In this document: positions 9,895 to 57,307 of the stretch, one piece after another
Position numbering within the stretch: position 1 is the stretch's first letter
Layout of the letters: the number at the start of each line of letters is the position of its first letter
Source of the DNA: a phage
DNA length: 64,000 nucleotides
Sequence record: PZ445488.1
Reading direction: 5' to 3' (one strand)
The notes under the pieces: model-generated
What the model saw: the letters and a program-made list of their open reading frames with translations, nothing else
The model's database searches: none
What the model was told of the DNA's origin: nothing
Position numbers and translations under genes: made by a program

Positions 9895-10581
9895 TTAGAA
9901 GTCGTGAGTAGAATCGGCTTCCATTGCAATAACATAACTTACTTGAGAGCTTTCAAACTTGGCTGCAACTTTATCACCAGCTCCCCACAACATTACTTTA
10001 TAGTTACCTGGCTGGATTTTCATATTAGCCATGTTGATTACGAAGTTAAAGTTGTTAGAACCATCATAATCGGTAAGAGTCAAAGAATACTTAGGACGAG
10101 TCAAGCCAGAATCTTCAACTTTATTGTAACCATTGATAACAATTTTACCATCTTTATTTGTAATAGCAATTGTATCAATCTGAAGACCACGTGAAACTCG
10201 AAGCAATTGTTGAAGGTCTTCGGCTTTAATTTCAGTAATCACAGAAGCCACTGGGAATTGAATTGGCTTATTAGGAAAAACAATGGTGCTCTTGTCGGCA
10301 GCAGGCCAATAAACTGTGGAACGTGTATCTGCAATTTTAATATTGCCATCAGTGTGCATTGAAATTTCAGCATCATCAGACACTAGACTCAAAATGCTTA
10401 AGAAGCTATTCAAATCATAAAGTGCTACGTCAAAATCAATTTCATCAGAGATATTTGCTTCTGCATAAGTGGTGCCATTAACTGCACGAGTCATAATAAA
10501 TTTACCTTGACTCAGCAGAATACCGGAGTTAATAGAGGCAAAGTTTTTCAGAATAGCGATAGTATCTTTAGACAGTTTCAT
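9895..10581 (-). CDS. 45: sliding clamp gp45
   Basis: MKLSKDTIAILKNFASINSGI... and C-terminal ALEADSTHDF match T4 gp45 (228 aa) from ATG 10581; the track start 10596 is a TTG extension. Confidence 0.92.
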   Translation of the reverse strand: MKLSKDTIAILKNFASINSGILLSQGKFIMTRAVNGTTYAEANISDEIDFDVALYDLNSFLSILSLVSDDAEISMHTDGNIKIADTRSTVYWPAADKSTIVFPNKPIQFPVASVITEIKAEDLQQLLRVSRGLQIDTIAITNKDGKIVINGYNKVEDSGLTRPKYSLTLTDYDGSNNFNFVINMANMKIQPGNYKVMLWGAGDKVAAKFESSQVSYVIAMEADSTHDF

Positions 10582-10623
10582 TTTATTTCCTTTCAAGACA
10601 ATTCAAAGTTTATAACAAATTTA

Positions 10624-15268: not shown

Positions 15269-15484
15269 TTATCTCATTAAATTAAAATAAAAACGTCCAT
15301 CCTCTTCAATACAGAACTCATACTCAACCGGAGTCCCATTTATCGAAAATGACACGTCATGTGGGTTCAAAGGGTCGATGTCAAAATTAATTTTAAATTC
15401 ACGACCCAACAGTTTTACCAAATAAGGGATTGCTTCGTCAAAAGGTTCTTCTAAGTAGTTAGAGATGTCAATTGTCATCCTCAT
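15269..15484 (-). CDS. hypothetical protein
   Basis: ORF track frame; start placed at ATG 15484 because the longer track ORF would run 95 nt into gene 55. Confidence 0.4.
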
Positions 15485-16025
15485 ATAAAAAATCCAAACT
15501 AGGCGAATCGCTAACAACTTCCTTCTTTTCAGCCCCAGGAGCTTTATAAGCGGATTCTTCATAATGCGTCATTTTATCGTAGATGTCTTGAATAAACGTT
15601 TCATCTACCAACGCTACCATATCATCGTCATGACTGTCGTAGACATTATGAACGAAGTAACTATATTTCTTTGCAACTTCCTTACGTTCTTTTTTGATAC
15701 GTTGGACAAAAGCATTAAAACAAGCTCGAGTTATGTATGCATGTGGGTTATTGTACTTAGTTTCGTCGAAATTATGAAGTCCCTTAATAGAGGCTTCAAT
15801 CCCATCTGCAATCATCTCCTGCTTCCAAGACTGGGTATATCCTGAAAAGTTGAAACGTTTGGACAGGCCTTCGGCAATAAGCATAATTGCTAAACCGATG
15901 GTATCATTCTGACGAATAATTTTGTTTGGGTCTTTATTATTTAAGAGCTCCTTTTTCCACTCGATTATAGCGGCGAGAAGCTCTTTATTATTCACATAGT
16001 TATTTTTAGGTTTTTGTTCAGTCAT
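15468..16025 (-). CDS. 55: late-transcription sigma factor gp55
   Basis: [60 protein letters not shown]... matches T4 gp55 (185 aa) from ATG 16025 with AAGAGG RBS; the track start 16043 is TTG. Confidence 0.9.
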
Positions 16026-16046
16026 AAGTACCTCTTGGCTCAATTC

Positions 16047-27807: not shown

Positions 27808-27834
27808 GTTTTACCTCCAGTAGTTGATAGGTCT

Positions 27835-27863
27835 ATAATAACATAACCATAGACCTTGTAAAC
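27835..27863 (-). promoter_or_regulatory. early promoter (GTTTAC, 17 bp, TATTAT) inside palindrome AGGTCTAT/ATAGACCT
   Basis: Minus strand reads GTTTACaaggtctatggttatgtTATTATagacctatc. Confidence 0.5.
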
Positions 27864-27865
27864 AA

Positions 27866-28153
27866 CTAAAAGAAACTTTTTTCGGTATTTTTTCCACTGA
27901 ACCAAACAGACTTCGGGATTTTTTGTAATTTTTCAGATTTAAGTTTCTCTTCCTGTTCTTTCTTATATACACTCTTGTCGTACTGGAGCATCTCTATGGC
28001 ATTCTTTTGCAAATGATCTAAGGTAATTAAGGCTTTAGTTTTTCCTTTCAAGGAAGAGTCCTGGCGAACTTCCTCGCTATATTGCATCGTAGAACTAACC
28101 ATACGATGTGCATAGAGTTCGACTGCGGCTTTAATTTTTTGCATAAAATCCAT
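27866..28153 (-). CDS. hypothetical protein (95 aa)
   Basis: ORF track. Confidence 0.45.
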   Translation of the reverse strand: MDFMQKIKAAVELYAHRMVSSTMQYSEEVRQDSSLKGKTKALITLDHLQKNAIEMLQYDKSVYKKEQEEKLKSEKLQKIPKSVWFSGKNTEKSFF

Positions 28154-29292: not shown

Positions 29293-29309
29293 TTCGTTTC
29301 GATAGGTCT

Positions 29310-29338
29310 ATAGTATCATATCCTAAAAGCATGTACAC
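29310..29338 (-). promoter_or_regulatory. early promoter (GTGTAC, 17 bp, TACTAT) followed by GACCTATC palindrome arm
   Basis: Minus strand reads GTGTACatgcttttaggatatgaTACTATagacctatc. Confidence 0.45.
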
Positions 29339-29367
29339 TACTTTTTAAAAATATTTTAACCCCCTAA

Positions 29368-29385
29368 GGGGACCCGAAGGTCCCC
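29368..29385 (-). terminator. UUCG-tetraloop hairpin GGGGACC-UUCG-GGUCCCC (terminator or stability element)
   Basis: 7-bp GC-rich stem 3' of the 29390..29656 gene; near-identical hairpins at 47276..47291 and 7898..7917. Confidence 0.4.
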
Positions 29386-29389
29386 ACAT

Positions 29390-29656
29390 TTACTTATCAC
29401 ACTTAGCAACATAATTAGGCATATCACAGAATACAGAGCGAGTAACTACTCGTCCCTTTGACCATGCTTCAGTTGCTTGTCCGGCCGTGCTATTAATATA
29501 GCTTGATTTAATGTTCTCAATACCCTGAGAATGTGATGCATTTACCGAACCGTTAGAAGGCGCAGGAGCCGGTGGTAACCAGTCTCCTGCGCCCGTGGTA
29601 GCACCAACAGAGAATGCCATCATTACTGCGAATAAACCAATTACTAATTTTTTCAT
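29390..29656 (-). CDS. small secreted/periplasmic protein (88 aa, signal peptide)
   Basis: MKKLVIGLFAVMMAFSVGATT... signal-peptide-like N-terminus; ATG at 29656; a late promoter motif lies 28 nt upstream. Confidence 0.55.
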   Translation of the reverse strand: MKKLVIGLFAVMMAFSVGATTGAGDWLPPAPAPSNGSVNASHSQGIENIKSSYINSTAGQATEAWSKGRVVTRSVFCDMPNYVAKCDK

Positions 29657-29683
29657 ATTTACCTCAAGTTAATGGTTATTTAT

Positions 29684-30673
29684 CTATTTATAGTAAGAAT
29701 TATGATTTTCGAGATAGACTTGCTCAAGGAAATCATCCCAGAAACTCATATCTACTTTTTGTTGCATACCATTCTTGGCAGCTTGTTCTGACGCATGTTC
29801 AACTTGGTCAACGATATCTTCTAGGAATTCTTGTACAGTTTTAAACGTATGTTTACCAAGCTTAACATCGAGAATAAATGGAGCATCTTGAAGTGGGTAA
29901 ACCAGGTCGCCGGTTTTGTAAATTTCCAATAATTGAAGTCCACCACGACATGCATGACTCAATGCTTTCCAGTCAATACCTTCGTTAGCTTCTGCCTTAC
30001 GAGCACGTTCACCATAGTTCTCTTCCAGTTTAACCAGGATGGCATTGAACTCTTTATTGGTTAACGTGTCTTGGAATTTACGGTCTAACAGATTATAGAA
30101 TGTTTGCTTACCTGTTTTCTCGTTTTCGGTTTCAACCCACGAAGCAAATTCACCTACAGGCAGAACATTCTTCATATGTGATAAACGAATTACTGCACCA
30201 TTATCAAAGTATTGTCCCCATTCATTAGAACGTTTAAGGGCTTGACGAAGAACAGCCAGTCGAGAACCCTTGACACCGTATTTAGAAGCTTGCTTACGGA
30301 CATACCCTAAATAAGATTTCATGTTAGTGGTATAGAAACGAGACCTGTTATCTTGAATATACTTCCATACATCAGGCAAATCAGATTTAACTACTAGACT
30401 TGGTGGAGTGTGAAGCATATCTAATGCGACGGTTTCACCATCCGCAGCTAGTTTAAAGAAATATTTGAGACTATACAACTCATGGTCTACGTCGTCTTTT
30501 GTGTTCTTAGAAGATGTGTTATTCGTGTTCTTGCTCATGTGTTCTTTAACGTTACCGGTCAAGATATCACGAGCATGAGGGACATAAATTTCTTTAAAAT
30601 CGACGTCAGATTCAGGAGTAGACGTTCCATAAAGGTGGCTACCAAAGTAGCTTTTCATAATTGTTTTCATCAT
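29684..30673 (-). CDS. predicted nucleotidyltransferase (Pol-beta superfamily GS...DxD motif)
   Basis: 329 aa; N-terminal YFGSHLYGTSTPESDVDF fits the minimal nucleotidyltransferase signature. Confidence 0.5.
   Translation of the reverse strand: MMKTIMKSYFGSHLYGTSTPESDVDFKEIYVPHARDILTGNVKEHMSKNTNNTSSKNTKDDVDHELYSLKYFFKLAADGETVALDMLHTPPSLVVKSDLPDVWKYIQDNRSRFYTTNMKSYLGYVRKQASKYGVKGSRLAVLRQALKRSNEWGQYFDNGAVIRLSHMKNVLPVGEFASWVETENEKTGKQTFYNLLDRKFQDTLTNKEFNAILVKLEENYGERARKAEANEGIDWKALSHACRGGLQLLEIYKTGDLVYPLQDAPFILDVKLGKHTFKTVQEFLEDIVDQVEHASEQAAKNGMQQKVDMSFWDDFLEQVYLENHNSYYK
29685..29692 (-). promoter_or_regulatory. late promoter motif TATAAATA (minus strand)
   Basis: Exact T4 late-promoter octamer 28 nt upstream of the 29656 ATG, overlapping the end of the upstream gene. 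Confidence 0.45.
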
Positions 30674-31143
30674 TTAGCCTTATATTCAAGAGTAGGACAG
30701 ACTTTTTCTTTACGAGCTTTAAGGTATTCACCTATTAATGATTTCTTACGTTCAATAGGCTCAAGTCCATTTTTAATTCGTTCTTGGTTTTGCGCAATGA
30801 GCTCAATTTCTTTATAATATTTTCTGTCGTTATATTTGTCTAACAACCAAGACGGACCAATTACCAACCCGGTAGCAATAAAAGCCATGACTGCTACAAT
30901 TAAAATGCCTACACCAATTGAGGCTGGAACTAATGTCCATAGACTGCTAAAAACAAAGAATTTAGTTAAAATTTCCTGGCCAATGATTGTGACTGCTGCT
31001 AAAATCGCAAATCCAATAATTGAAACAGCCAATACCGGGATTAACGTTTTCCAAAAATAAGCACATAATGTTTTCGGACGATTCCACGTACTATTGAACG
31101 CGGCATAAATTTTAAAGTGCCAAGAGTTTTCATTGATAATCAT
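30670..31143 (-). CDS. integral membrane protein (157 aa)
   Basis: ORF track; several hydrophobic segments. Confidence 0.5.
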   Translation of the reverse strand: MIINENSWHFKIYAAFNSTWNRPKTLCAYFWKTLIPVLAVSIIGFAILAAVTIIGQEILTKFFVFSSLWTLVPASIGVGILIVAVMAFIATGLVIGPSWLLDKYNDRKYYKEIELIAQNQERIKNGLEPIERKKSLIGEYLKARKEKVCPTLEYKAK

Positions 31144-31999: not shown

Positions 32000-32029
32000 A
32001 CTATAACATAATCCTACCAAGATGTAAAC
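32000..32029 (-). promoter_or_regulatory. early promoter (GTTTAC, 18 bp, TATAGT) inside palindrome GGTAGGA/TCCTACC
   Basis: Minus strand reads GTTTACatcttggtaggattatgtTATAGTagtcctacc. Confidence 0.45.
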
Positions 32030-32523: not shown

Positions 32524-32826
32524 TTAGATAGATGTAGGCTCTAATTTTATTTTCATGAACTCAGCAAATTGTCTGGCAGTTTTTATGCCTTGTTCATGAC
32601 ATTCAAATGCATCATCACAGGGGCTATTTTTGTAATGCTTTGCCATATACTTATAGAATTTTTCAGAATTCTCGACATTTTGAATTTCAAACAAAGTATA
32701 TACGTTTTTAATCCCTGATTCCATAAAGTTATCAAAATATGGGTCAATATGTGCAGTACCAACGATAGGAGTTGTTGCTGCAAAAAACCCCAGCATCGCT
32801 ATGACAGCTATCGCTCTTAAGGCCAT
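32524..32826 (-). CDS. rI: lysis-inhibition regulator RI (antiholin)
   Basis: MALRAIAVIAMLGFFAATTP...DPYFDNFMESGIKNVYTLFE resembles T4 RI (signal-anchor plus periplasmic domain); lies next to tk as in T4. Confidence 0.85.
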   Translation of the reverse strand: MALRAIAVIAMLGFFAATTPIVGTAHIDPYFDNFMESGIKNVYTLFEIQNVENSEKFYKYMAKHYKNSPCDDAFECHEQGIKTARQFAEFMKIKLEPTSI

Positions 32827-33051: not shown

Positions 33052-33075
33052 ATATACCTCTTGGTTAGATATTAG

Positions 33076-33083
33076 TATTTATA
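33076..33083 (-). promoter_or_regulatory. late promoter motif TATAAATA (minus strand)
   Basis: Exact octamer 25 nt upstream of the 33051 ATG, overlapping the tk stop. Confidence 0.4.
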
Positions 33084-33660
33084 ACAACCCTGTCAAATCA
33101 TTCCAATGCTTCCGGCATAATGACACGTATCTATCGGTATCACCAATTTCAATTTGACTGCCATCTGTAATTGGAAGTCCGTCTTCCGTGACTCTAGCTA
33201 CCATTGTGGCCTTTTTACCGCAATGACAGACACCTTTAAGTTCAACAAGCTTATCGGCAATAGCCATTAATGCTTGAGAACCTTCAAATAGATTACCTTT
33301 AAAATCTGTTCGTAGTCCATATGCCATTACTGGCACATTGTATACGTCAACAATACGACTAAGTTGATACACCTTTTCAGTAGTTAAGAACTGAGCTTCG
33401 TCAACAAATACACAGTGAATATCCTTTTGTGCTGCAGCCCATTTATAGAATTCAAAGATATCCATGTCTTTTGTAATTATATTGGCATCCTGACGAATAC
33501 CAATACGAGAGACTATTTCACCTTTTGAATCACGAGTATCAATAGCCGGTTTAAGAACTAATACACCCATGCCACGTTCTTTATAGTTATGTGCGGCAGT
33601 AAGTAATGAAGCAGACTTACCAGCGTTCATAGCGGCATAGGTAAAAATTAAACTAGCCAT
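33079..33660 (-). CDS. tk: thymidine kinase
   Basis: 193 aa; P-loop AAMNAGKS and zinc-ribbon cysteines (CHCGKKA...CRKHW). Confidence 0.93.
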   Translation of the reverse strand: MASLIFTYAAMNAGKSASLLTAAHNYKERGMGVLVLKPAIDTRDSKGEIVSRIGIRQDANIITKDMDIFEFYKWAAAQKDIHCVFVDEAQFLTTEKVYQLSRIVDVYNVPVMAYGLRTDFKGNLFEGSQALMAIADKLVELKGVCHCGKKATMVARVTEDGLPITDGSQIEIGDTDRYVSLCRKHWNDLTGLL

Positions 33661-56845: not shown

Positions 56846-57307
56846 ATGAAGAAATCCAAAACCATACAATTCCGTTACATTTATAAATCAACAGTAACCA
56901 ACCCAAAGGGGTTGGTTCGAATATATATAGGAAAGCATGAATCCAGATATTTTAATCTAGAGGATGATAATTACGTAGGAAGCGGGGATTATATACAAAA
57001 GATTAAAAACAAACCAGGCTATGCTATAGATTTCGAAATTATCGAATTCGTTTCAACACTCGATGTTTTAAATGAAAGAGAAAAATTTTGGATATCTGAA
57101 TATAGAAAAACAGGCCAGTGTGTTAATATAAAAGACGGTGGAGATGGATTTTCTTCAAACGATTTAAAACGAATGTGGTCTAATCCTGAGTATCGAGAAA
57201 CTCAACTTAAAGCTTTGGCAAAAGGAAAATCTACAAAAGAATTTTCAGAAAAATTTCAAAAATTAATAAACTTAGATGTTCGGAATCTGAATATCGAAAG
57301 AAAATGA
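56846..57307 (+). CDS. GIY-YIG homing-endonuclease-like protein (seg family), catalytic N-terminal part
   Basis: GIY-YIG signature YIYKST...VRIYIGK; first copy of a WSNPEYRE-type DNA-binding repeat; ends in an ATGA overlap with the next ORF. Confidence 0.6.
   Translation: MKKSKTIQFRYIYKSTVTNPKGLVRIYIGKHESRYFNLEDDNYVGSGDYIQKIKNKPGYAIDFEIIEFVSTLDVLNEREKFWISEYRKTGQCVNIKDGGDGFSSNDLKRMWSNPEYRETQLKALAKGKSTKEFSEKFQKLINLDVRNLNIERK

What the first reader, a model, noticed from the sequence alone, without database searches (positions are those of the whole stretch)
29390..30673. Predicted nucleotidyltransferase followed by a late-expressed small secreted protein
The 329-aa ORF starts with a minimal nucleotidyltransferase motif (GSHLYGTSTPESDVDF). 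Directly downstream, an 88-aa signal-peptide protein has an exact TATAAATA late promoter 28 nt upstream and a UUCG hairpin after it. A late periplasmic protein inside an early-gene block is unusual and could act in superinfection exclusion or lysis timing.
Basis: inference. Interest (0 to 1): 0.4.

Follow-up and report, generated by a model that had tools for sequence, protein, structure and literature searches.

The report
NrdC.11 nucleotidyltransferase plus orphan exported-protein gene
This stretch of an RB69-like T-even coliphage holds the already known NrdC.11 RNA-repair-type nucleotidyltransferase and, slotted in behind it, a small orphan gene for an exported protein of unknown function that is probably made early as well as late, so the arrangement is ordinary for this phage group.

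Summary
The window is an RB69-like T-even phage (Mosigvirus), 100% identical here to Escherichia phage CEV1.

- **329-aa ORF:** it is the ortholog of T4 NrdC.11, a RlaP-family (PF10127) nucleotidyltransferase annotated as such since 2006.
- **88-aa ORF:** it is a real gene under purifying selection. It has a conserved Sec-type N-terminus, an indel-prone Gly/Ser linker and a conserved 55-residue core with two cysteines. It is an orphan (phrog_2243), found only in Mosigvirus and Gaprivervirus.
- **Position:** it sits between the nrdC.11 stop codon and the UUCG hairpin plus early promoter that directly follow nrdC.11 in T4-type phages and RB69.
- **TATAAATA box:** it is exact, well placed and kept in all 10 copies examined. 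However, 7 of its 8 bases are forced by the Tyr-Lys-stop end of nrdC.11.
- **Timing:** no terminator separates the gene from nrdC.11, whose T4 ortholog is an early transcript. The Gaprivervirus copy carries a MotA-type middle promoter instead. "Late-expressed" is therefore at best half the story.
- **Context:** a late box before a periplasmic protein inside an early block is not unusual, since rI.1/rI 3.4 kb upstream has the same layout.

Function remains unknown. Interest is low to moderate.

The parts
29684..30673 (-). nrdC.11 ortholog: RlaP-family (PF10127) Pol-beta-type nucleotidyltransferase, 329 aa. The motif GSHLYGTSTPESDVDF is at residues 11-26. Its start overlaps the stop of the upstream membrane-protein gene (ATGA).
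   Evidence: RlaP, 6.3e-13, 49.4 bits against a cut-off of 23. (phrog_388, 2.6e-126). (about 79% identical to RB14 nrdC.11, same neighbours). (3707 homologs; the 120 listed all carry PF10127). PMC12776372 places T4 NrdC.11 in RlaP cluster 5.
29685..29692 (-). Exact T4-type late-promoter box TATAAATA, overlapping the last nrdC.11 codons (TAT AAA TAG). The predicted late start is near 29679, giving a 5' UTR of about 23 nt.
   Evidence: Kept in 10 of 10 Mosigvirus copies that have the small gene. Reads TATAAATG in 7 of 7 sampled phages in which the small gene does not directly follow nrdC.11. Placement statistics. No transcript data are available.
29662..29665 (-). Shine-Dalgarno GAGG, 5 nt before the ATG of the small gene.
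   Evidence: invariant in the nine Mosigvirus upstream sequences printed.
29390..29656 (-). 88-aa orphan gene (phrog_2243). Residues 1-19 are a Sec-type signal peptide (n-region KK, h-region LVIGLFAVMMAF, c-region SVGA). Residues 20-33 are a variable Gly/Ser/Pro linker. Residues 34-88 are a conserved basic core with a predicted helix at 46-66 and Cys77/Cys86.
29559..29593 (-). CEV1-specific 35-nt segment, a 15-nt core between perfect 10-nt inverted repeats. It is the reverse complement of the sequence in sister phages and rewrites the linker from AGGNQSS to DWLPPAP, in frame.
   Evidence: The reverse complement differs from phage JK36 at 3 of 35 positions; the forward sequence differs at 14 of 35.
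29368..29385 (-). UUCG-tetraloop hairpin GGGGACC-UUCG-GGUCCCC. It is the conserved stem-loop that follows nrdC.11 in T-even phages. Here it is followed by UUAGGGGGUUAAAAUAUUUUU, a poor U-tract, so termination is probably leaky and the hairpin may mainly protect the RNA 3' end.
   Evidence: Covariation: 100% paired, 5 of 7 pairs compensatory.
29310..29338 (-). Early-type promoter (GTGTACA, 16 nt, TACTAT) for nrdC.10. Together with the hairpin it forms a PeSL-type stem-loop plus early-promoter cassette.
   Evidence: repeat D2, a 57-nt promoter module also found at 27826-27882. The same module is duplicated around ORF102c in RB69 and AV112. PeSL concept from PMC2839356 and PMC4122927.
28291..29271 (-). 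nrdC.10 ortholog, an AAA-type ATPase of unknown function. It is the next transcription unit.
   Evidence: (phrog_1250).
32000..32028 (-). Nearest upstream early-type promoter (TTTACA, 17 nt, TATAGT, with TG). It is the likely origin of the unit DUF7438 gene, mobD.1, membrane protein gene, nrdC.11, small gene.
   Evidence: 10 of 12 match. (repeat D3, a shared -10 module). No Mot box and no convincing terminator on the minus strand between 32000 and 29657. ORFs overlap or lie at most 27 nt apart.

Best explanation
The finding covers the 3' end of an early transcription unit in the variable tk-nrdC region of an RB69-like T-even phage (Mosigvirus; CEV1).

**329-aa protein.** It is the ortholog of T4 NrdC.11, a RlaP-family Pol-beta nucleotidyltransferase. 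By analogy with the bacterial RlaP enzymes characterised in vitro, it most likely adds one or two nucleotides to damaged RNA (tRNA) 3' ends as part of phage RNA repair. This step is inferred.

**88-aa ORF.** It is a lineage-restricted accessory gene. It lies exactly between the nrdC.11 stop codon and the UUCG hairpin plus early promoter that directly follow nrdC.11 in T4-type phages and in RB69. This is shown.

It encodes a Sec-type signal peptide with probable cleavage after V-G-A19, a disordered indel-tolerant Gly/Ser linker, and a conserved basic core of about 55 residues. The core has one predicted helix and a C-x8-C loop that could form a disulfide in the periplasm. The sequence features are shown; export and cleavage are inferred.

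**Expression.** No terminator lies upstream, so the gene should be co-transcribed with nrdC.11 from the early promoter near 32000. The exact TATAAATA overlapping the nrdC.11 stop codon probably adds late transcripts starting near 29679. That would give early-plus-late expression, as for rI. This is inferred.

**Function.** The most likely mode of action is a small soluble periplasmic binder or inhibitor of an envelope target, in the manner of T4 Spackle or RI. The target is unknown.
For: **Identity of the phage and of nrdC.11:**. RlaP biochemistry and the placement of T4 NrdC.11: PMC12776372. NTase annotation since 2006: PMC1524935.

**The slot is modular**:
- T4-type phages: the small gene is absent and the hairpin plus early promoter directly follow nrdC.11 (in WilhelmHis other small annotated ORFs follow).
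- RB69 and AV114: ORF102c only.
- CEV1-type phages: the small gene only.
- AV112: both.
- VR7 and VR25: the small gene plus other ORFs.

**The small gene is real:** dN/dS is 0.04-0.26 in the core, and 49 columns are invariant across sequences sharing 64% identity, including V17 and A19 at the -3 and -1 positions and both cysteines.

**Signal-peptide features:** two lysines, a 12-residue h-region with Kyte-Doolittle hydropathy 2.96, then V-G-A.

**Orphan status:**

**Early read-through:** packed or overlapping ORFs and no terminator; T4 nrdC.11 and mobD.1 RNAs are early.

**A late component is plausible:** the box is exact and kept in 10 of 10 copies. Exact boxes in this window are almost always promoter-placed while 7-of-8 variants never are. 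The late sigma factor gp55 and the gp45 clamp are encoded in the window.

**Hairpin covariation:**
Against: - No transcript, export or activity data exist for this phage group.
- SignalP could not be run. The 21-residue uncharged stretch rich in Gly, Ala, Ser and Thr could be an uncleaved signal anchor or an RI-like signal-anchor-release domain rather than a cleaved signal peptide.
- The box could be an accident of coding. TAT-AAA-T is fixed by Tyr-Lys-stop, and only the last base differs between phages with and without the gene. The phages that carry the gene probably trace back to a single insertion event.
- The AlphaFold model of the small protein is unreliable (pLDDT 50), so the helix and the disulfide loop are weak inferences.
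- The Pfam match covers only the N-terminal 138 residues of NrdC.11. No solved structure matched by sequence.
Confidence: 0.6

Rival explanations
1. The small protein is a true late gene, driven essentially by the TATAAATA box, and acts in superinfection exclusion or lysis timing.
For: The box is exact, 28 nt before the ATG (32 nt in sister phages), and kept in 10 of 10 copies. Exact boxes in this window are strongly promoter-placed. Phages without the small gene directly after nrdC.11 carry the broken form TATAAATG. T4 RI, a small periplasmic lysis-inhibition protein, has the same late-box arrangement 3.4 kb upstream.
Against: No terminator separates the gene from the early-transcribed nrdC.11. 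The Gaprivervirus ortholog has a Mot-box middle promoter and no late box. The known T4 exclusion proteins Imm and Sp are early (own knowledge). There is no sequence similarity to RI or to any functional family.
Confidence: 0.15
2. The TATAAATA is a coding by-product with no role. The gene is expressed only early or middle, as the last cistron of the nrdC.11 unit.
For: Seven of 8 bases are dictated by Tyr-Lys-stop and are present in all sampled T-even nrdC.11 genes that end in YYK. The box count in the window equals chance. The phages that carry the box are closely related. The Gaprivervirus copy lacks a late box. Nolan et al. 2006 predicted late promoters only before T4 late-gene orthologs and found novel ORFs to be co-expressed with early genes (PMC1524935).
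Against: In this window only 1 of 8 exact boxes lacks a gene start within about 40 nt downstream on its strand, and 0 of 25 one-mismatch variants are promoter-placed. This suggests that exact boxes are either used or purged. An exact box with gp55 and gp45 present is generally regarded as close to sufficient for late initiation (own knowledge).
Confidence: 0.25
3. The N-terminus is not a cleaved signal peptide. It is a membrane anchor or an RI-like signal-anchor-release domain, so the protein acts tethered to the inner membrane or is released conditionally.
For: There is a 21-residue uncharged stretch, LVIGLFAVMMAFSVGATTGAG, rich in Gly, Ala, Ser and Thr. RI in the same window has a comparable N-terminus and is known not to be cleaved (own knowledge of Tran et al. 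2007).
Against: The strongly hydrophobic core is only about 12 residues. V at -3 and A at -1 are invariant across both genera. A flexible linker follows the predicted cleavage site.
Confidence: 0.2
4. The 88-aa ORF is not a gene but a chance ORF in an intergenic spacer.
For: It is short, has no known homologs outside two phage genera, and gives a low-confidence structure model.
Against: dN/dS is 0.04-0.26 with many synonymous changes. The frame is kept despite linker indels and an in-frame inversion. The Shine-Dalgarno is conserved. The gene occurs in two different genomic contexts.
Confidence: 0.02

Closest known systems
T4 NrdC.11 / RlaP family (PF10127) nucleotidyltransferases, e.g. Pseudomonas PfRlaP and PaRlaP
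   Same: The 329-aa protein is about 79% identical to T-even NrdC.11 and has the same neighbours (mobD.1 upstream, nrdC.10 downstream). It scores above the Pfam cut-off and has the G-S-x12-D-x-D motif.
   Different: The phage clade forms a separate cluster (cluster 5) from the characterised bacterial enzymes. It is not next to an RNA ligase gene here. The C-terminal 190 residues are not covered by the Pfam match. Activity is untested.
T4 RI antiholin (PF24205), with its rI.1/rI late-plus-early promoter arrangement
   Same: Both are small (about 90-100 aa) proteins with a hydrophobic N-terminus, a periplasmic domain and two cysteines. Both are encoded on the early strand with a TATAAATA 24-28 nt before a start codon. 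rI is present in the same window at 32826..32524.
   Different: There is no sequence similarity and no Pfam Antiholin match. RI is conserved across T-evens, whereas the 88-aa gene is accessory.
T4 Spackle (Sp, gp61.3), the periplasmic inhibitor of the gp5 tail lysozyme that mediates superinfection exclusion
   Same: From general knowledge only: a small secreted protein with a signal peptide and a disulfide that acts as a periplasmic binding inhibitor.
   Different: No direct comparison was made and no family hit was found. Sp is an early gene found widely in T-evens.
PeSL cassettes (promoter-early stem-loop) of T4-type hyperplastic regions
   Same: The UUCG stem-loop is followed within about 30-50 nt by an early promoter. 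The module is repeated in the region and flanks ORFs that vary between sister phages (PMC2839356, PMC4122927).
   Different: The small gene lies upstream of the cassette and has no cassette of its own on its 5' side, so it borrows the transcription of nrdC.11.
T4 late promoters inside early regions (gene 49, rI.1/rI and others)
   Same: Exact TATAAATA 15-35 nt before a start codon on the early strand.
   Different: This box overlaps the stop codon of the preceding gene and is largely dictated by that gene's last codons.

Membership tests
RlaP / PF10127 nucleotidyltransferase (T4 NrdC.11 clade) | Pfam PF10127 score above the gathering threshold | tested here: met
   49.4 bits against 23, E 6.3e-13, residues 4-138; the 120 homologs listed all carry PF10127.
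RlaP / PF10127 nucleotidyltransferase (T4 NrdC.11 clade) | Pol-beta signature hG[GS]x9-13Dh[DE]h | tested here: met
   Residues 10-26, FGSHLYGTSTPESDVDF. The third carboxylate was not mapped.
RlaP / PF10127 nucleotidyltransferase (T4 NrdC.11 clade) | Orthology and synteny with T4-type nrdC.11 | tested here: met
   79% identity to RB14 nrdC.11, located between mobD.1/membrane protein and nrdC.10.
RlaP / PF10127 nucleotidyltransferase (T4 NrdC.11 clade) | Adds 1-2 NMP to RNA 3'-OH ends | not testable with these tools
   Shown only for the Pseudomonas enzymes (PMC12776372).
RlaP / PF10127 nucleotidyltransferase (T4 NrdC.11 clade) | Gene adjacent to an RNA ligase or RNA repair operon | tested here: not met
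   The neighbours are mobD.1, a membrane protein, the small ORF and the AAA protein NrdC.10. This feature gave the family its name but is not required for membership.
T4-type late promoter | Exact TATAAATA | tested here: met
   29692..29685, minus strand.
T4-type late promoter | Placed a short distance before a gene start that has a ribosome-binding site | tested here: met
   28 nt to the ATG, with GAGG 5 nt before it. Same class as 6 of the 8 boxes in the window.
T4-type late promoter | The phage encodes the late sigma factor gp55 and the gp45 clamp | tested here: met
   (phrog_234, 3.9e-68, ORF 16043..15468). (gp45 domains, ORF 10596..9895).
T4-type late promoter | Conserved wherever the downstream gene is present | tested here: inconclusive
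   Kept in 10 of 10 Mosigvirus copies. Absent from the Gaprivervirus copies, which have a Mot-box promoter. Seven of the 8 bases are constrained by coding.
T4-type late promoter | Late, gp55-dependent transcript 5' end about 6 nt downstream of the box | not testable with these tools
   No transcript data were found for Mosigvirus.
Sec (SPase I) signal peptide | Positively charged n-region, h-region of 7-15 hydrophobic residues, small residues at -3 and -1 | tested here: met
   MKK, then LVIGLFAVMMAF, then S-V-G-A|T. V17 and A19 are invariant in 14 sequences from two genera.
Sec (SPase I) signal peptide | Predictor score (SignalP) or experimentally shown cleavage | not testable with these tools
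   No predictor is available. The GenBank label 'signal-peptide domain-containing protein' seen in neighbouring records belongs to the 157-aa membrane protein, not to this gene.
Rho-independent terminator | GC-rich stem-loop | tested here: met
   7-bp stem with a UUCG loop.
Rho-independent terminator | U-tract immediately after the stem | tested here: not met
   In the window the stem is followed by UUAGGGGGUU. T4-type and Gaprivervirus copies do have U6. A leaky terminator or RNA-stabilising role is more likely here.
PeSL (promoter-early stem-loop) cassette | Stem-loop followed closely by an early promoter, repeated and flanking variable ORFs | tested here: met
   Definition from PMC4122927.
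T4 antiholin RI family (PF24205) | Sequence or profile similarity of the 88-aa protein | tested here: not met
   No Pfam hit. BLASTP against the window's RI gives E 0.21 over 10 residues.

The most novel reading that the evidence does not exclude
The 88-aa protein founds a new family of T-even periplasmic effectors restricted to Mosigvirus and Gaprivervirus. It would be a small disulfide-stabilised binder made both early and late that blocks an envelope step, for example entry of superinfecting phage, a host periplasmic enzyme, or the holin/antiholin balance. The nrdC.11 stop codon would have been recruited (TGA changed to TAA/TAG) to complete a late promoter for it.
Probability: 0.25. Interest if true: 0.5.

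Novelty: new member of a known kind. Interest (0 to 1): 0.2.

Why it matters
The result matters modestly.

- **Nucleotidyltransferase.** It is already known (T4 NrdC.11, RlaP family). Its only current interest is that bacterial RlaP enzymes have recently been shown to repair RNA 3' ends, which makes the phage enzyme a testable part of T-even RNA repair.
- **Small exported protein.** It is one of many uncharacterised accessory genes in the variable regions of T-even phages. If it proved to be an exclusion or lysis-timing factor, it would add a member to the short list of phage periplasmic effectors (Sp, RI).
- **Gene shuffling.** The locus shows cleanly how such genes are slotted in. The gene sits between a stop codon and a stem-loop plus early-promoter cassette, and it borrows the upstream operon's transcription. 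A one-base change in the neighbour's stop codon may have given it a late promoter.
- **Annotation.** Many GenBank records label nrdC.10 and nrdC.11 as "thioredoxin", which is wrong.

Tried and rejected
- **Remote homology for the 88-aa protein.** Pfam, PHROGs, NCBIfam and PADLOC gave only phrog_2243 (unknown function) and sub-threshold noise. The word-indexed search of 5.8 billion proteins gave 17 clusters, all from the same family. A profile HMM search of 1.84 billion cluster representatives found only the family's own cluster. IMG/VR gave 2 loci.
- **Structure of the 88-aa protein.** AlphaFold2 on the family alignment gave pLDDT 50.5 and pTM 0.18. This is too poor for a fold search, so none was run.
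- **Similarity to RI.** None.
- **Solved structures related to NrdC.11 by sequence.** None at E <= 0.01.
- **Diverse alignment for an NrdC.11 model.** The homolog search listed only sequences at least 98% identical, so no structure was predicted.
- **Independent signal-peptide annotation.** The label in phage mobillu turned out to belong to the neighbouring 157-aa membrane protein.
- **Mot-box (middle) promoter upstream of the unit.** None on the minus strand between 29.6 and 33 kb.
- **Rfam.** Only the two tRNAs matched.
- **Transcriptome data for Mosigvirus or RB69.** None found. The T4 genome review (PMC150520) is not held.
- **RB69 predicted late promoters** (PMC1524935, supplement 5). None lies at the nrdC.11 end, which is expected because RB69 has TATAAATG there. 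The listed site Pl:58753 corresponds to the rI.1 box.
Full report
**What the window is.** The 2.2 kb around the finding is 100% identical to Escherichia phage CEV1 and 97-98% identical to many Mosigvirus (RB69-like T-even) genomes. All genes here run on the minus strand. The window contains DNA polymerase, the gp45 clamp, the late sigma factor gp55, nrdD, gene 49, the nrdC.x block, rI, tk, two tRNAs and baseplate genes, which is the T4 layout.

**Check of the observation.**
- The 329-aa ORF runs 30673..29684 and carries GSHLYGTSTPESDVDF at residues 11-26.
- The 88-aa ORF runs 29656..29390.
- TATAAATA lies at 29692..29685, exactly 28 nt before the ATG. GAGG lies 5 nt before the ATG.
- The hairpin GGGGACC-UUCG-GGUCCCC lies at 29385..29368.

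**The nucleotidyltransferase.**
- It matches Pfam RlaP (PF10127) at 6.3e-13, above the curated cut-off, and phrog_388 "nucleotidyltransferase" at 2.6e-126.
- It is about 79% identical to the nrdC.11 product of T4-type phages and has the same neighbours.
- Nolan et al. 2006 already assigned nrdC.11 to the COG3541 nucleotidyltransferases (PMC1524935).
- A 2025 preprint places T4 NrdC.11 in RlaP cluster 5. It shows that bacterial RlaP enzymes add one or two NMPs to damaged RNA 3' ends and restore tRNA function (PMC12776372).
- This half of the finding is therefore already known. The activity of the phage enzyme itself remains inferred.

**The small ORF is a real, orphan, exported-type gene.**
- Homologs exist only in about 100 Mosigvirus records and a few Gaprivervirus records (VR7, VR25).
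- A profile search of 1.84 billion cluster representatives found nothing else.
- No functional family matches.
- Between genera, dS is about 0.6-0.9 and dN 0.16 in the core. Within Mosigvirus, dN/dS is about 0-0.04.
- Forty-nine columns are invariant. They include V17 and A19 (the -3 and -1 positions of the predicted signal peptidase site), W65 and both cysteines.
- The N-terminus has two lysines, a 12-residue hydrophobic core (Kyte-Doolittle 2.96) and V-G-A|T.
- Residues 20-33 form a Gly/Ser/Asn/Pro linker with frequent indels, giving variants of 86 to 98 aa.
- The mature protein would be about 7.2 kDa, with a basic core (pI 8.7-9.4).
- AlphaFold gives only a low-confidence helix at 46-66 (pLDDT 50), so no fold comparison was attempted.
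- SignalP was not available. An uncleaved anchor or an RI-like releasable anchor cannot be excluded.

**Genomic logic of the slot.**
- In T4-type phages (RB14, WilhelmHis, Pu-Krd-SF3), nrdC.11 ends TAT TAT AAA TGA. It is followed at once by a UUCG hairpin, a U-tract and an early promoter, which in RB14 and Pu-Krd-SF3 drives nrdC.10.
- RB69 and AV114 have the same junction, then an extra cassette (ORF102c) flanked by duplicated promoter modules.
- CEV1-type phages have the 88-aa gene inserted precisely between the nrdC.11 stop and that hairpin.
- AV112 has both cassettes.
- VR7 and VR25 have a different set and lack nrdC.10.
- The hairpin is conserved as a structure. All 49 cells are paired in seven lineages, and 5 of 7 pairs show compensatory changes.
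- Hairpin plus early promoter matches the published PeSL cassettes that mediate module shuffling in T4-type variable regions (PMC2839356, PMC4122927). The promoter module is repeated nearby.
- The hairpin therefore belongs to the nrdC.11/nrdC.10 boundary rather than to the small gene. In Mosigvirus its U-tract is interrupted (UUAGGGGGUU), so termination is probably leaky.

**When is the small gene expressed?**

Evidence for a late component:
- The box is exact and is kept in all 10 Mosigvirus copies examined. It lies 32 nt from the ATG in the others; CEV1 lacks 4 nt.
- Although the number of boxes in the window equals chance (8 against 7.4), 6 of 8 lie 15-35 nt before an ORF ATG (P about 7e-8). 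A seventh lies 42 nt before the TTG start of gene 53. None of 25 one-mismatch variants TATAAAT[C/G/T] is so placed.
- gp55 and gp45 are encoded in the window.

Evidence against "late" as the defining feature:
- The ORFs from the early-type promoter at 32028..32000 down to the small gene overlap or lie at most 27 nt apart, and no convincing terminator intervenes.
- In T4, nrdC.11 and mobD.1 RNAs are classed as early (PMC9697503 supplement).
- The Gaprivervirus ortholog is preceded by TGCTTCA-N12-TATAGT, a MotA middle-promoter match, and has no late box.
- Seven of the 8 box bases are imposed by the Tyr-Lys-stop end of nrdC.11. Only the stop codon differs. It is TGA in 7 of 7 sampled phages in which the small gene does not directly follow nrdC.11 (after a YYK ending), and TAA or TAG in 10 of 10 with it. 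That association is striking, but it probably reflects a single insertion event.

My reading is early read-through with a probable late boost, as is known for rI.

**Is it unusual?** No. In the same window, 3.4 kb upstream, rI.1/rI (Pfam Antiholin, a periplasmic protein) has a TATAAATA 24 nt before its start that overlaps an early-type promoter. Gene 49 also has a late box. In T4, rI.1 is classed as early RNA and late protein.

**Function.** Nothing beyond inference is possible. By analogy with the two characterised small periplasmic T4 proteins, Spackle and RI, the most likely mode is a soluble periplasmic binder or inhibitor. Exclusion, lysis timing or counter-defence are all open. The gene is dispensable for the genus, because RB69 and AV114 lack it.

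**Verdict.** The locus combines known kinds of element: the NrdC.11/RlaP enzyme, a PeSL cassette, a T4 late box, and one uncharacterised accessory exported protein. Interest is about 0.2.

Noticed in passing
window 29559-29593 (minus strand), inside the small gene: CEV1 carries a 35-nt segment, a 15-nt core between perfect 10-nt inverted repeats GGCGCAGGAG/CTCCTGCGCC. It is the reverse complement of the sequence in sister phages (3 mismatches reversed against 14 forward). This is the signature of a quasi-palindrome template-switch mutation. It stays in frame and rewrites the linker from AGGNQSS to DWLPPAP.
   Followed up: yes
window 29680-29692 compared with L001, L005, L007-L011: CEV1 lacks 4 nt (TAAA) present in nine other Mosigviruses between the TATAAATA box and the small-gene start. 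This changes the nrdC.11 stop from TAA to TAG and the box-to-ATG distance from 32 to 28 nt.
   Followed up: partly
nrdC.11/nrdC.10 junction: window 29293-29683; L002, L003, L004, L012, L013, L023: The slot is a modular hot spot, occupied differently in different lineages. In T4-type phages the hairpin and early promoter directly follow nrdC.11. RB69 and AV114 have ORF102c. CEV1-type phages have the small exported protein. AV112 has both. VR7 and VR25 have three small ORFs and no nrdC.10. ORF102c is flanked by duplicated early-promoter modules.
   Followed up: yes
window, all TATAAATA sites (22250, 29692, 33083, 47966, 52063, 54466, 54488, 56823): Exact late boxes occur at chance frequency but are almost all promoter-placed: before gene 49, the small gene, rI.1, a phrog_2280 ORF, gene 4, gene 53 and the ORF after gene 5. 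None of 25 TATAAAT[C/G/T] variants is so placed. This suggests exact boxes are purged unless used.
   Followed up: partly
window 33069-33096 (minus strand): An early-type promoter (TTGACA, 16 nt, TAATAT) overlaps the TATAAATA box upstream of rI.1/rI. This gives the antiholin operon a dual early/late arrangement, and it corresponds to the RB69 predicted late site Pl:58753.
   Followed up: partly
GenBank records of relatives (e.g. MK962754, MN850622, OR352942): nrdC.10 (AAA ATPase) and nrdC.11 (nucleotidyltransferase) are widely annotated as 'thioredoxin', apparently carried over from the gene-name prefix nrdC. In PV204681 the small ORF itself is labelled 'nucleotidyltransferase'.
   Followed up: no
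window 30670-31143 (minus strand): A 157-aa predicted membrane protein (phrog_944, like RB69ORF104c) occupies the position of the mobD homing endonuclease of T4. Its stop overlaps the nrdC.11 start (ATGA), which suggests translational coupling.
   Followed up: no
window 56846-57307 (plus strand): A 153-aa ORF directly after gene 5, with a TATAAATA 15 nt upstream, partially matches a homing-endonuclease PHROG (phrog_314, 6e-18, profile positions 178-311 of 574).
   Followed up: no
L003 3715-3745 and L013 (Gaprivervirus VR7, VR25): The Gaprivervirus copy of the small gene has its own MotA-type middle-promoter match (TGCTTCA-N12-TATAGT) and a canonical UUCG terminator with a U6 tract. The same gene is therefore wired to a different expression class in another genus.
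   Followed up: partly
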